Shown in pieces: positions 303-60,354 of a DNA stretch of 64,000 nt. Under the pieces are notes generated by a model. It was not told where the DNA came from. It worked only from the letters and a program-made list of their open reading frames with translations, and made no database searches. The translations under genes and the position numbers were made by a program. This DNA is from Octopus vulgaris (lineage: Eukaryota). The DNA is taken from the NCBI GenBank assembly GCA_951406725.2, contig OX597814.1, positions 69,502,001 through 69,566,000 of the forward strand, in the 5' to 3' direction. Positions within the stretch are counted from its first letter, which is position 1; each line of letters opens with the position of its first letter.

Positions 303-363
303 ATTCTATTGATGAAGGTAAAGTAATTTGTATTACTAAATCAGAAATTGGATGATCTAGAAT
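303..363 (+). ncRNA. Hammerhead-ribozyme-like motif (type I, C3U variant) in a probable PLE terminal repeat
   Basis: ATTCTA-TTGATGA-[helix II with AGTAAT/ATTACT]-GAAA-TTGGATGA-TC-TAGAAT. Helix I ATTCTA/TAGAAT is 6 bp. Confidence 0.55.
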
Positions 364-1309
364 TAATCTCAAAATTTTACTAAATCTCTGTTTTCATTTG
401 CTCGCTTTCATCCTTGTACTAATGGAGTGTAATTGAAGTGGTTTTTAGAGTTTTTTGATGTCTATATCTAGTTTGTAGGTACTGTTTCTCAGTACCCTTA
501 ATTTTAATTATATCTATAGTTATATATATATATATACACACACACATGTACTTACATACCCCTCTCTCTATATTTATATATATATATATATATATATATA
601 CATATATATATATATATATGTATATATATATATATATACACACACACACACACACATATATATATATTCAATCAGTTGTTCTTAAATCTGAAAGAAGCAC
701 ACTCTAAAACAATTTTTCTGAGCAGTCATATTTTATGTAGTCATTGGTTGCGCCCAGTCAGAAGGTCATCACTGGTTTCACATATATTAATGCCCATAGC
801 AATATAAGCAATCGAACAGATTTGCTGGTACATAACCTCTTTATCAAAGGGGTAAAAATACAGCCTTGGTCAGCTTGGTGGTGCAAAATTTTTTATAAGT
901 GGAAACTCCAATGTAGGCTTCCCTGCCTGCTGACTAGTGTATGGAAAATGTACATAAACCGATACTTTTGGGATGCAACTGGAGCTGTTGAAAGGGAGGT
1001 AACTCCATTTCTCTGAGAAAAGGTTAACATTGAAAATATTTCATTTCAGGTGTTTTTTCACCTATCAAGCTGCACAAGTCTGTATTTACACCTCCATTAG
1101 TAAAGAGATTGTGAAACCAATGCTGAGTGGTTGGTATTAGGAAGGGCATCCAGCTGTAATAATCCTATCAAAACAGTCACAGAAGTCAGGTGCAGGCTTT
1201 GGCTTGGCTGGCTCTTATACCATCCTATTCATGCTAGCATGGAACACAGACGTTAAATGATGATGATTATCAATACATATATATAAAAGAGAGATTCTGT
1301 CCATTGAGC

Positions 1310-1460
1310 AAAATATTCTCACTGGTTGTGATAAACATGACACCATCTTCGTTCCTTGCATACCACTTATGCAGATTCCTATCCTACCGCTATGAGCATT
1401 AATAAAAGTCAGGGCCAATCACTAAAAGTTGTTGGATTGCAATTTGAAGAACACAGAAGT
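1310..1460 (+). mobile_element. Helitron PIF1-family helicase fragment
   Basis: ILTGCDKHDTIFVPCIPLM followed, after a frame break, by AMSINKSQGQSLKVVGL, matching the PIF1/Helitron motif (F)AMTINKSQGQSL. Confidence 0.7.
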
Positions 1461-1989
1461 TTGTATATGAAATCCATCTTTTTTCTACTTCAATTATTAC
1501 ATATTTTCCTCTTATATAATACACACATACAGTACACTTAAACCTAAATCTGGCAGATAGGACACAGCATTTGCAATTTCATTGGACTTTTACTTACTGT
1601 TGCCTTGCCTTCCATTCCTGTAATATAGCATCGGAATTTCAACGCTAATATTGACAGGACACATCATTTATAATTTCATTTCACTATTACTTACTGATAT
1701 TCCTAATAAAAAAAAAATGTCTGCAAAAGAAAGACCATCAAAAAACAAATGCCAAACAAATGCATGACGTGTGATGCTTTTGTTCCACTTGACCTGCAGC
1801 CTTTTCAGTGCCATTGCAGTCAACTGGATTCCGTAAAGCTATTCTTCCATATGATATACCCATTTTTCTAGCTTCTCGGCCTGAGAAACAGTAAAAGTAA
1901 TTACCTGATCAACAATGGGTATCACTGCCAGTGTGTATATATATATATATATATATATATATATATATATATATATGCATAAGATGAAT

Positions 1990-2290
1990 TAAATCTGGCA
2001 GGCAGGGGAGGAGAATGTGACACGCATGAGTAAAGACAGCTGTATAAAGAAGTGCCTGTCACTGGAAGTGGATGGTACCTGAGCAAGATGGAGGCCCAGA
2101 AACACATGGGATGAAGTGGTGAGGATTGATCTCAGAATAGAGGAAAGGACAATGGACTTTGATGTCTGGTGGTATGAGGTTCTATAGAAGACACACCCAC
2201 AGCAGCGAAAGTGAGTGCTAGAAGTGTTGTGCCCCATTACATTTATGAATTTGTGTTGCAAGATTCCTAATGTGAACCGTGTGTTGAAAC
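1990..2290 (+). mobile_element. RTE LINE 3' remnant, interrupted by the CR1-group insertion and resuming near 7020-7770
   Basis: Decayed C-terminus ...SCIKKCLSLEVDGT..RPRNTWDEVVR. Sequence after 7040 (aaccaaactacatctc...) matches the equivalent part of the uninterrupted copy at 60900-60960 and ends in a GAT-repeat tail near 7760. Confidence 0.65.
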
Positions 2291-2334
2291 AGATATTTCA
2301 TTTCATTTCATTTCATTTGAGTTTGAGTCCATGC

Positions 2335-57176: not shown

Positions 57177-57199
57177 ATATAAGAAATGCTAAGCCACAT

Positions 57200-58310
57200 G
57201 AAACCTCCCTTACCAGTTTCATGAAGCTATAGAAAAGAATTTCCCAAGAAATTCACACCAAATTCACACCAAGTGAGGATAGGTTTTTCTAACACAAAAA
57301 ATCTTTCACAAATCATCTCTTTGCATAATAATAAGTTGTTAAATACAAATCCACTTAATGAAAATACTAACATTGATTTTGTTAACACTAACCAAGGTTA
57401 GTGTTCGCATTCATTTTCTTAGTAATAATTCAAGAACTAGAAACTTTATTTATCAATGTAAAATTACTTCTGGTTCTGACATCTTTTTTTATATAGGTAG
57501 TTCTTCATCTCAGTTGTCCAAAAGAATATCTTATCATTACTCTACAAATAGAGGTAGAATTAATGTCAATAGGGTTAATATAGGTAATTTTTCTTTATAG
57601 CTTGCTTTAAGTAATGCAGAGTTATAAAATTCAGCTTTATTGTTGAAGGTATCAACATTAGCAGATAATCTAGAAAGTCTAAGTGAAATATTCCTAACTA
57701 AATTCTCTGTAATAGCCTTACTGAAAGAGTTAATAGATTTTAAATTAGTTGAGGGTTTATAGTATCGGAAATATGAATCATTATGCAAATTAAGGGTTAT
57801 ATCTAAAAAGTTGGCTTTAGTTATATCATCGTCAAAAAAAATGCTCCAGCCCATGTTTCGGAAAAATTTTTGGTTAGAAGCATTTAGAAGGTAGAGTAGA
57901 CAATCATTATGATATAGACTTCCATTCATGTTTGGGAATTGGTCAGCCATCTCATAAAGGACATATATACCGACCAAATCAAAACTTCCCATCATGACAT
58001 CAAAACTGTTGGGTGTATCTTTACAGACCCATAGCTTGTTATCAAATTTAATAATAGATTTTCTGGTGGCTAACACTATATTAATTTCATCCCTGGTGAG
58101 ACCTGTTTTGTTGTGAGTGAGCCAGAGTGCTTTGTTAAGTACGATTAGGTTGAAAGAAGAATAGAAACTAGAACTGTCAAACTGGATAAACATAGTGCAC
58201 TTCTTGCTATTAATAGAATTAAACCAGTCAACCACTTCAAATGAATCAGACCATAAATTAAGCTTTAATTTTTTAACTAAGGTAAGAATACATTTATGTA
58301 GAATATATAG
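57200..58310. mobile_element. PLE remnant with an internal inversion (RT on minus, downstream linker/GIY-YIG on plus)
   Basis: Minus 58300-57570: FIQFDSSSFYSS, FDVMMGS, NFLDITLNL. Plus 57200-57560: NLSQIISLHN, TRNFIYQC, FYIGSSS...KRISYH. Confidence 0.75.
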
Positions 58311-58856
58311 ATGGGTTATAAAGAACTGATGTTAAATGATGAATAGCTACGTGCCAACCAAAGCCTTGTGAGTGGATTTTGTAGATGGAAACTGAAAGAA
58401 GCCTGTCATATATATATATGTGTGTGTATATGTGTCTGTGTTTATTCCCCCATCACCACTTGATAACCAGTGGTTTATGACCCCATAATTTAGTGGTTTG
58501 GCAAAGGAGATCAATAGAATAAGTACTAAGCTTAATGAATGAGTCCTGGTGTCGATTTGTTTGACTAAAAAACTCTGCAAGGTGGAGCTCCAGCATGCCC
58601 GCAGTCAAATGACTGAAAAAAGCAGGAGAGTATCATCATCATCATCATCATCATCGTTTAGCGTCTGCTTTCCATGCTAGCATGGGTTGGACAAGCTAGC
58701 ATGAGTTGGACATATATAATATATATATATATATTAATAAAAGGAATTCCAACCTTGTCTGATTTTCACATTTTATTTACAATCTTATAATGATATAAGA
58801 TAATATAATCTAATAAAATAAAATAAAATAATAGAATGTTAAATGTTCATTCTGAT

Positions 58857-58901
58857 TGAACTAGTACTTTCATGCATTAAATTCTGCAATCTTCAGGTTC
58901 A
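58857..58901 (-). ncRNA. Identical inverted copy of the PLE hammerhead
   Basis: Exact reverse complement of 60310-60354. Confidence 0.8.
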
Positions 58902-60309
58902 TGTAGTAGTGGCGACAGTCATGCTTCACAATTTTTGACTGTAGCGAGATGATTGAATCTGTGCCTTAAATACAGCTGTGTAGCCTCCAGATTGCTAGGT
59001 TTTGCAAACTGTATTCTGATCAATCAGTGTGTAGTATCACTCAATTACTTAAGCTGATTGGTTGGTTGAGCTGACTGGTTTAGGCGTCACGCTTTGTTGG
59101 ACATGTCAAGAGTCCCGTATCTTAACCCTGGCCGAGGCAGCAATTGTTGGGCTATTTTTAGAAATGTTGTAAATAGCCTTTGTCAGAGATTTTTATATTT
59201 TTATATTTCAATTGTCATCATCATCATTGTCAGCACCTTAATTATTGTTGCTAGTGGTGATGGTGGTGGCAATAGAACTTTTAACCCTAAATAAGATAAT
59301 TTTCCTGCTATCTAAGTATTATTATTATTATTGCTTATTTAGCTTGGGTTCAAATCATTGCCAATTGGGTTCGAATCATTGCCCAAAGTAATGAATTAAA
59401 AGACATAATCATGGATCGAGCTACGGTTCTTAGTAAAAGACAGCTTAAAAACTTGAAAAAATTACTAACAAAGGCAAAAATTTGACCTTAGCAACAAAGA
59501 CCAAACATTCACTGTATCTAAATGCAATGATAGCCAATGTGGCACATGCCAATTCATACATACCAGCCAATATATAAACACAAAAACCGGGAAAATATTC
59601 ACAAACGCGAATATGAACTGCAAAAGCAGAAATTTAATTTACTGCATCAAATGCCCAAATTGTGAAGAAATATATGTAGGTCAGACGGGAAATGCACTAT
59701 CAGAACGCTCATGTGTACACCGGCAACAGATTAGAGACCCAGAGGTCCGTCAGATACCTTTGAGTAACCACCTAGCAACATGTGGTCGGAAAATATATAT
59801 AATATTTCCATTCTACAAATTACACAGCCCAAGTGAAATCAAGAGGAAAATCAGAGAAAAGAATTTTATTGATAAATTCGAACCCAAGCTAAATAAGCAA
59901 TAATAATGATACTTAGATAGCAGGAAAATTATCTTATTTAGGGTTAAAAGTTCTATTGCCACCACCATCACCACTAGCAACAATAACTAAGGTGCTGACA
60001 ATGATGATGATGACAATTGAAATATAAAAATATAAAAATCTCTGACAAAGGCTATTTACAACATTTCTAAAAATAGCCCAGCAATTGCTGCCTCGGCCAG
60101 GGTTAAGATACAGGACTCTTGACATGTCCAACAAAGCATGATGCCTAAACCAATCAGCTTAAGAAATTGAGTGATACTACACACTGATTGGTCAGAATAC
60201 AGTTTGCAAAACCTAGCAATCTGGAGCCTACACAGCTGTATTTAAGGCACAGATTCAATCATCTCGCTACAGTCAAAAATTGTGAAGCATGACTGTCACC
60301 ACTACTACA

Positions 60310-60354
60310 TGAACCTGAAGATTGCAGAATTTAATGCATGAAAGTACTAGTTCA
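60310..60354 (+). ncRNA. Minimal type I hammerhead in the PLE terminal repeat
   Basis: UGAAC-CUGAAGA-UUGCAGAAUUUAAUGCAU-GAAA-GUAC-UA^GUUCA, with palindromic GUAC. Confidence 0.8.

What the first reader, a model, noticed from the sequence alone, without database searches (positions are those of the whole stretch)
303..60354. About eight hammerhead-type motifs inside one dynein gene, four in the transcribed orientation
Seen: motifs at 303-363(+), 7919-8041(+, degenerate), 15900-15944(-), 21342-21430(-), 34925-34971(-), 55475-55541(+), 58857-58901(-) and 60310-60354(+). Apart from the identical 58857/60310 pair, their flanks look unrelated, yet they share the architecture helixI-CUGANGA-helixII-GAAA-short insert-UH-helixI, usually with a palindromic or near-palindromic insert (CUCGAG, CAGCUG, AUAU, GUAC, CCCAGG). 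Inference: the four minus-strand copies are transcribed within introns A-B, C-D and E-F and could cut the nascent pre-mRNA. Their differing palindromes would restrict dimer activation to same-family partners, which may explain why the host tolerates them.
Basis: partly seen in the sequence, partly recalled or inferred. Interest (0 to 1): 0.75.

Follow-up and report, generated by a model that had tools for sequence, protein, structure and literature searches.

The report
Jumping-gene hammerhead debris in dynein introns
The eight motifs are real copies of hammerhead-type self-cutting RNA motifs from seven repeat families of Penelope-type jumping elements; they lie in both directions equally across this huge dynein gene, most are damaged, and they are likely ordinary passengers rather than a control system of the gene.

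Summary
All eight motifs are present and beyond chance (strict descriptor 3 vs 0.00 in 100 shuffles; loose 8 vs 1.12). Each belongs to a dispersed repeat family (seven families). 58857/60310 are the terminal repeats of a Penelope-like element (PLE). 21342 heads a decayed Hydra-type PLE. 15900 is a 352-nt retrozyme-like unit. The others are ORF-less short units. The host is a DNAH9/11/17-type gene of at least 775 kb holding at least 55 such motifs: 29 sense, 26 antisense; intact 19/29 vs 16/26. There is no strand bias. Of the four sense copies, 34925 has a broken 3-8 pair, 21342 has a decayed helix II, and 58857 is predicted to be trapped in a 600-bp hairpin. Only 15900 could plausibly cut. Palindromes are shared between families; helix I sets partner specificity, and same-family partners exist in the pre-mRNA, so palindrome diversity does not explain tolerance. 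Palindromic, dimer-dependent, slow PLE hammerheads are published. Side result: the 34925 family (1,269 exact pattern matches) has a natural G3-C8 core, and the 15900 subfamily has C4. The scan noted the G3-C8 family and such PLE remnants before, in this and other genomes. Cleavage is untested.

The parts
63767..63999 (-). Dynein heavy chain (DNAH9/11/17-type) exon A, runs off the window
54869..55025 (-). Dynein exon B (AAA1 P-loop)
42315..42577 (-). Dynein exon C
26280..26418 (-). Dynein exon D
24081..24173 (-). Dynein exon E
11298..11492 (-). Dynein exon F
303..363 (+). Antisense hammerhead copy with U3; the family has C3 (17 of 19 rows) and a 10-nt helix III; unit of about 500 nt, no ORF
7919..8041 (+). 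Antisense, old (median 75% identity) copy with G12A; the family has G12 (18 of 22 rows) and the same palindrome as the 21342 family
15900..15944 (-). Sense, canonical-type type I hammerhead; helix I extended by 6 more bp (about 15893-15956); predicted cut between 15906 and 15905; the only plausible cutter; its subfamily has C4 (69 of 73) but this copy has U4
15733..16125 (-). 352-nt retrozyme-like unit plus a 41-nt terminal redundancy, ending in (TA)n
16191..16532 (-). Hydra-type GIY-YIG fragment (CxCX5C), likely the displaced 3' part of the element headed by 21342
18966..21011 (-). Decayed Hydra-type PLE reverse transcriptase ORF (RWK-like motif)
21342..21430 (-). Sense hammerhead in the leader repeat (about 21074-21521) of that element; core intact, 5 of 7 helix II pairs left, folds worse than shuffles (z +2.0)
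34925..34971 (-). Sense copy of the G3-C8 family (unit about 34839-34993, next to (TA)n); this copy has C3.C8, predicted dead
35000..35562 (+). Hydra-type GIY-YIG fragment beside the 34925 copy; not linked to that hammerhead in other copies (1 of 24)
55475..55541 (+). Antisense hammerhead, one change from the family's perfect palindrome (14 of 29 rows); unit of about 457 nt, no ORF
58729..59355 (-). Inverted 5' terminal repeat of a young PLE insertion, holding the sense hammerhead 58857-58901
58857..58901 (-). Sense minimal hammerhead, core intact, U.U at the base of helix II, 6-nt palindrome; predicted trapped in a 600-bp duplex
59374..59903 (+). 5'-truncated PLE ORF end: CX4CxxC linker and GIY-YIG (Neptune/Nematis-type)
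59876..60482 (+). Direct 3' terminal repeat, holding hammerhead 60310-60354 (antisense to the gene), followed by (TA)n

Best explanation
The eight motifs are type I hammerhead motifs carried by seven dispersed repeat families, two tied to Penelope-like element (PLE) reading frames and the rest likely non-coding PLE-type or retrozyme-type units, which sit in the introns of a very large dynein gene in both orientations equally and are likely decaying passengers. In the donor element the motif would cut tandem precursor RNA as a strand-swapped dimer: palindromic helix III and helix I both form between two copies (inferred). Lone intronic copies are likely tolerated because they are slow without a near partner or the element's protein, are broken by mutation, or are trapped by an inverted copy, and because a slow cut in an intron need not stop splicing (inferred from papers).
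For: Shown. Every motif has many genomic relatives. The 60310 family has the same RT/GIY-YIG frame directly upstream in 10 of 23 other loci and the inverted-repeat-plus-(TA)n layout of PLEs (PMC8557442 passages). 21342 lies 330 nt upstream of a Hydra-type ORF; part of its flank precedes related ORF starts in 2 of 19 other loci. Family majorities are better hammerheads than the window copies at positions I did not select for: 303 C3 in 17/19, 7919 G12 in 18/22, 34925 paired 3-8 (G3 35/39, C8 38/39), 55475 perfect palindrome in 14/29. Within four families the changes are 185 pair-breaking, 99 one-sided and 13 two-sided cells beside 1,584 unchanged and 56 gapped, as expected for neutral decay. 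Gene-wide there are 29 sense and 26 antisense copies (p 0.79), intact 19/29 vs 16/26 (Fisher p 0.79); descriptor only, 14 vs 17. Density is 55 in 775 kb inside and 7 in 89 kb outside the mapped span. Homodimer MFE is the double hammerhead for 15900 and 58857. Papers: PMC4209133 (palindromic helix III, dimers, low activity, mostly solitary copies, opposite-strand pairs); PMC11167929 (a PLE hammerhead cleaves only with the PLE protein; single C3G or G8C abolishes cleavage); PMC2995048 (reports that hammerhead-cut introns still splice).
Against: No PLE ORF was found near most copies of five families (55475 0/25, 7919 0/20, 303 1/20, 34925 2/24, 15900 2/29 loci of 3 kb), so their PLE dependence is inferred from layout: inverted copies in 3-17 of 20-30 loci and partial tandems. 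The strand test covers one gene with n=55 and could miss a bias smaller than about two-fold. The 15900 copy is intact, unlocked and keeps helix I in context (P 0.54-0.56), so it may cut. Homodimer co-folding did not give the double hammerhead for 303, 7919, 21342, 34925 or 55475. No cleavage or expression data were obtained.
Confidence: 0.85

Rival explanations
1. One reading: sense copies are competent to cut the pre-mRNA, and the host is protected because different palindromes prevent cross-family dimers.
For: Palindromes do differ: 19 distinct helix III sequences among 23 groups. The four sense copies in the window are from four families. Dimer folds are predicted for two.
Against: Palindromes are reused across families; 21 of 28 helix-III-compatible pairs fail on helix I; 7 fully compatible sense pairs exist in the same pre-mRNA, 28-502 kb apart. 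Three of four sense copies are predicted disabled by other means. There is no strand bias.
Confidence: 0.07
2. One copy (15900) is a monomer-competent, canonical-type hammerhead that cuts a fraction of nascent dynein transcripts, with or without a regulatory effect.
For: It has a full core with U4, 6+6 bp helix I with an internal loop, a 4-bp helix II with a CAAUA-type loop and a 2-bp helix III. It has no inverted partner in the window. A similar axolotl motif cleaved 22% in 1 h as a monomer (PMC7229834, passage).
Against: The MFE fold is not the active one and it has a C.U mismatch at the base of helix II. It is 96% (median) identical to ordinary family copies, with no sign of domestication. 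Slow intronic cuts leave splicing intact (PMC2995048).
Confidence: 0.25
3. The motifs are chance matches in AT-rich sequence.
For: Loose descriptors give 1-2.4 hits per shuffle; Rfam finds none; most folding z-scores are near 0.
Against: Strict counts are 3-5 vs at most 0.16. All seven families carry better motifs than the window copies. There are 20 canonical hits in 864 kb vs 0 in 5 shuffles.
Confidence: 0.01

Closest known systems
Minimal type I hammerheads (min-HHR) of metazoan Penelope-like elements (Cervera and de la Pena 2014, PMC4209133)
   Same: CUGANGA plus one extra base, GAAA, a short palindrome, UH and a 4-5 bp helix I; many sequence families per genome; mostly solitary copies; opposite-strand pairs; U3-A8 variants; dimer model.
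   Different: No octopus example among the supplement passages searched. Here one abundant family has G3-C8 and several have C4. Several families have an extra base before G12, which is also seen in their Hydra example.
Hydra-clade and Neptune/Nematis-type EN+ PLEs (Craig et al. 2021, PMC8557442)
   Same: RWK-like, DKT and CxCX5C motifs (Hydra) or DKG-like and CX4CxxC motifs (Neptune/Nematis); C-terminal GIY-YIG; inverted 5'-truncated copy; (TA)n targets; hammerhead in the terminal repeat.
   Different: The copies here are truncated or decayed; clade was assigned from motifs, not from a tree.
Non-LTR retrozymes (de la Pena and Cervera 2020, PMC7229834; bioRxiv 10.64898/2026.07.22.740005)
   Same: 15900: a non-coding 352-nt unit with a canonical-type type I hammerhead, 2-bp helix III, mismatch at the base of helix II; about 42-44% of Xenopus copies are intronic.
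   Different: Only partial tandems were seen (1.1-1.5 units), no full multimers among the loci fetched; circular RNA not tested; the subfamily carries C4.
Ultraconserved intronic hammerheads of amniotes (RECK, C10orf118, DTNB; as reviewed in PMC6155905)
   Same: Type I hammerhead in an intron, thought to come from retroelements.
   Different: Those are single conserved copies; these are members of large decaying families with no strand preference.

Membership tests
Type I hammerhead ribozyme | Core C3-U4-G5-A6-N7-G8-A9 / G12-A13-A14, A15.1-U16.1, H17 | tested here: met
   Met in 15900, 21342, 55475, 58857 and 60310; not met in the window copies 303 (U3), 7919 (G12A) and 34925 (C3.C8), whose family majorities have canonical or paired cores.
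Type I hammerhead ribozyme | Helices I, II and III with the ends in helix I, supported by covariation | tested here: inconclusive
   Helices are present in the family majorities. Helix I pairs vary in all four WC types across 23 groups, but the descriptor conditions this. Within families only 13 two-sided vs 185 broken cells. The unconditioned upper helix I is 6, 5, 9, 4, 3 bp vs up to 6 (once 8) in cross pairs.
Type I hammerhead ribozyme | Match to an Rfam hammerhead model | tested here: not met
   None among 46 matches at E<=1; this lowers membership in curated Rfam families, not the likeness to min-HHR.
Type I hammerhead ribozyme | Self-cleavage after H17 | not testable with these tools
   No raw RNA reads were available.
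PLE min-HHR | Palindromic 15.1-16.1 insert allowing a strand-swapped dimer | tested here: met
   Palindromes 6/6 or 8/8 in six of eight copies; dimer MFE for 15900 and 58857/60310.
EN+ Penelope-like element | RT plus C-terminal GIY-YIG frame next to the hammerhead repeat | tested here: met
   60310 family 10 of 23 other loci; 21342 in the window and partly in 2 of 19 other loci.
EN+ Penelope-like element | The same ORF link for the 303, 7919, 15900, 34925 and 55475 families | tested here: not met
   0-2 incidental hits per 20-29 loci of 3 kb; these are not filed as autonomous PLEs.
EN+ Penelope-like element | Inverted 5'-truncated copy, partial tandem, (TA)n target | tested here: met
   Inverted copies within 700 nt in 8/30, 3/25, 11/25, 5/25, 17/25, 6/20 and 3/20 loci; (TA)n flanks.
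Non-LTR retrozyme (15900) | Non-coding tandem unit of 150-450 nt with a canonical type I hammerhead | tested here: inconclusive
   Period 348-353 nt in 13 of 19 direct-repeat offsets; no full dimer with two hammerheads seen among 30 loci.
Non-LTR retrozyme (15900) | Expressed circular RNA | not testable with these tools
   Only contigs, no run on record as RNA.

The most novel reading that the evidence does not exclude
Abundant retroelement families in this genome run on naturally damped hammerhead cores (G3-C8 with 1,269 exact pattern matches, C4, U3-A8) that cut only as dimers or with the element's protein, which makes intronic insertion cheap; a single CpG change back to U4 in the 15900 copy has produced a monomer-active ribozyme that cuts nascent dynein pre-mRNA.
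Probability: 0.15. Interest if true: 0.55.

Novelty: new member of a known kind. Interest (0 to 1): 0.27.

Why it matters
As a statement about the dynein gene it is ordinary: about one hammerhead-type motif per 14 kb is the background here. Its value is as a small negative test, with no selection visible against sense-strand intact copies in a 775-kb gene, and as a ready panel of natural core variants (C3-G8, U3-A8, G3-C8, C4) with defined helix I and palindrome combinations for testing the dimer rules of PLE hammerheads.

Tried and rejected
Rfam scan: no hammerhead model hit. 'Candidate' numbers of the DNA searches are not copy numbers: 2,347 for 15900 vs 73 exact pattern matches. A link of the G3-C8 family to the neighbouring GIY-YIG fragment was rejected (1 of 24 other loci), and three longer stretches between paired G3-C8 copies showed no PLE frame (L276-L278). 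The fragment at 16191-16532 is not part of the 15900 unit (single-copy depth). Expression: no RNA holder listed; contigs laid on two stretches cannot show ends or strand and showed no informative joint; the higher share of C4 in two possible RNA runs is not used as evidence. Regex-based family counts were noisy and were replaced by column counts. The MAFFT alignment of sister families misplaces helix III, so I compared them by anchored parts; the upper helix I signal is weak against cross pairs. Weak U3-A8 descriptor hits with helix I under 5 bp were at shuffle level and were dropped from the census queries. Lunse et al. (PMC5785218) and PMC5850863 could not be read, nor file 1 of the PMC4209133 supplement; they may describe G3-C8 or C4 variants.
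Full report
OBSERVATION. With 100 local dinucleotide shuffles, a strict type I descriptor finds 3 (15900, 58857, 60310) against a mean of 0.00; a canonical core without a helix II demand finds 5 against 0.05; a loose descriptor tuned to include all eight finds 8 against 1.12. Only five copies have the complete core: 303 has U3, 7919 has G12A and 34925 has C3.C8. 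Rfam lists no hammerhead family among 46 matches at E<=1.

HOST GENE. Six exons on the minus strand join in frame at GT-AG sites, match Pfam AAA_6 and are 81-90% identical to most of the listed hits, which include proteins named dynein heavy chain 9, 17 or beta chain. Mapping with those proteins and Dynein_C places the gene at G000:C1:69,170,227 to at least 69,945,706, about 775 kb; the first 130 or so residues were not located. The genome is 2.8 Gb; the nearest PLE protein hit is from Argonauta, and earlier scan notes call it octopus.

EACH MOTIF IS A REPEAT-FAMILY MEMBER. 58857/60310 lie in a 95%-identical 600-bp inverted repeat around a GIY-YIG fragment and between TA-rich flanks. The same RT/GIY-YIG frame lies directly upstream of the motif in 10 of 23 other loci, and a near-complete element with DKG-like and CX4CxxC motifs lies just beyond the gene's end. 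21342 heads a decayed ORF with the RWK-like and CxCX5C motifs that PMC8557442 (section 11) gives for Hydra-clade PLEs; that ORF is interrupted by other insertions and resumes at 16532-16191. Part of the 21342 flank precedes related ORF starts in 2 of 19 other loci. 15900 sits in a non-coding unit with a 348-353 nt period (13 of 19 offsets), in the size range of animal retrozymes (PMC7229834, passages). 55475 (about 457 nt), 303 (about 500 nt), 34925 (about 155 nt, fold-back in 17 of 25 loci) and 7919 (old, median 75%) show the inverted or partial-tandem layout but no consistent ORF. Their dependence on PLEs is inferred.

WINDOW COPIES ARE DECAYED VERSIONS. By alignment column (distinct rows): the 303 family has C3 in 17 of 19; the 7919 family G12 in 18 of 22; the 55475 family a perfect palindrome in 14 of 29; the 21342 family a 7-bp helix II, of which this copy keeps 5 pairs; the 34925 family G3 in 35 and C8 in 38 of 39. 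Across four families, helix cells are 1,584 unchanged, 185 broken, 99 one-sided, 13 two-sided and 56 gapped. This is post-insertion decay, not selection on each copy.

CORE VARIANTS. A pattern with positions 3 and 8 left open finds 1,269 exact matches for the 34925 family (638 forward, 631 reverse, control 0); 94 of the 100 listed read G3-C8 and none has C3. In the laboratory this swap partly rescues the single mutants, each of which abolishes cleavage (PMC11167929 and PMC8495972, passages). Three full-text searches listed no paper that I saw describing a natural G3-C8 family; natural U3-A8 and a viroid U4C are in PMC3088659 (section 8 and passages) and PMC4209133. Lunse et al., which surveys such motifs, could not be read. 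Earlier notes of this scan already report a G3-C8 family in this genome. For 15900, 69 of 73 exact matches have C4 and 4, including this copy, have U4. A CpG change is the simplest reading, but U4 dominates the wider sister families by contig depth (C4 about 8% in X16), so an ancestral U4 is not excluded. C4 and U3-A8 also occur in other families in the gene, and C4 motifs follow Hydra-type ORFs at L281 and L283.

STRAND BIAS. In 864 kb, scanned tile by tile, the descriptor finds 20 canonical motifs against 0 in each of 5 shuffles; within the gene the paired-core and C4 hits are 14 sense and 17 antisense. A similarity census with 36 natural copies as queries gives 55 motifs in the gene: 29 sense, 26 antisense (p 0.79), intact 19 of 29 vs 16 of 26 (Fisher p 0.79), and 7 in the 89 kb outside the mapped span. 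The census is a lower bound, favours families seen in the window (8 of the 55 against about 4.5 expected), and has power only for large biases.

DIMER LOGIC. In the double hammerhead, A15.1 of one copy pairs with U16.1 of the other, so helix I is also intermolecular; co-folding gives this structure for 15900 and 58857/60310 but not for the other five. Among 171 pairs of the 19 intact sense copies, 28 are compatible in helix III, and only 7 of these also form a swapped helix I of 4 bp or more; those are same or sister families, 28-502 kb apart. Identical palindromes occur in unrelated families. Specificity thus rests mostly on helix I, and compatible partners are present, so palindrome diversity is not what protects the gene; distance and splicing likely are.

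THE FOUR SENSE COPIES. 34925 equals the G8C single mutant: predicted dead. 21342 folds worse than all 200 shuffles and loses helix I in context. 58857 is transcribed after its own complement, 1.4 kb earlier, in a duplex of about -1,000 kcal/mol: predicted trapped. I took the locking idea from earlier scan notes. 15900 has a full core, helix I extended to 6+6 bp, a short helix II with a CAAUA-type loop and no inverted partner; helix I holds at P 0.54-0.56 in context. It is the one plausible slow cutter; its only compatible partner among the intact sense copies is 299 kb away. PMC2995048 (passages) reports that introns cut by a hammerhead were still spliced while a fast ribozyme blocked splicing.

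LITERATURE SEEN. PMC4209133: parts 1-2 of 4 plus supplement passages (file 1 not searched). PMC3088659: passages and section 8. PMC8557442: passages and section 11. bioRxiv 10.64898/2026.07.22.740005: part 1 of 5 and passages. PMC7229834, PMC11167929, PMC8495972, PMC2995048, PMC6765202, PMC6155905: passages. PMC3884650: listing only. PMC5785218 and PMC5850863: not available. Hammerhead numbering and the roles of G8 and G12 are partly from my own knowledge.

VERDICT. Observation confirmed, interpretation partly supported. These are new members of a known kind: PLE- and retrozyme-type hammerhead remnants at background density with no orientation bias. Interest 0.27; the natural core variants and the 15900 copy are the only parts worth a bench test.

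Noticed in passing
G000 genome-wide; window 34925-34971: Repeat family with a natural G3-C8 hammerhead core: 1,269 exact pattern matches, 94 of 100 listed G3-C8; a helix I variant keeps the pair as U.G in 9 of 40 rows.
   Followed up: partly
L281:5013, L283:2090 and 5578; C1:69657381, 69660428, 69691287, 69780220: Several unrelated families have C4 instead of U4, including motifs that follow Hydra-type PLE reading frames.
   Followed up: partly
L280:715-1354; C1:69690478, 69813071: Canonical-type type I hammerheads with a U3-A8 core and extended helix I, sisters of the 15900 family; three copies within 8 kb at L280.
   Followed up: partly
L212/L213, C1:69120340-69123721: Near-complete PLE of the 60310 family (RT and GIY-YIG in two long frames) between inverted hammerhead repeats, just downstream of the gene.
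   Followed up: partly
L212, C1:69118267 and 69118830: Two identical hammerheads in tandem 563 nt apart with a 10-nt palindrome, a natural dimer candidate.
   Followed up: no
window 23441-24014: Tandem 309-bp repeat with a tRNA-like part (Rfam tRNA 38.9 bits at 23796-23870), likely a tRNA-derived SINE, about 70 nt from exon E.
   Followed up: no
window 2335-6681 (-): Long LINE with an 817-aa APE-RT frame and an upstream ORF1-like frame in intron F-G.
   Followed up: no
window 49052-50069 (+), 57343-58331, 37747-38607: Further Hydra-type PLE fragments without a recognisable hammerhead; 57343-58331 has RT and EN parts on opposite strands.
   Followed up: no
window 27987-29875, 44630-47065, 52999-53988, 61168-61581: LTR-type RT/integrase remnants, a piggyBac-like and a mariner-like transposase remnant in the introns.
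   Followed up: no
C1:69733330-69945706: Very long 5' introns of the dynein gene (about 95-118 kb between mapped exons).
   Followed up: no
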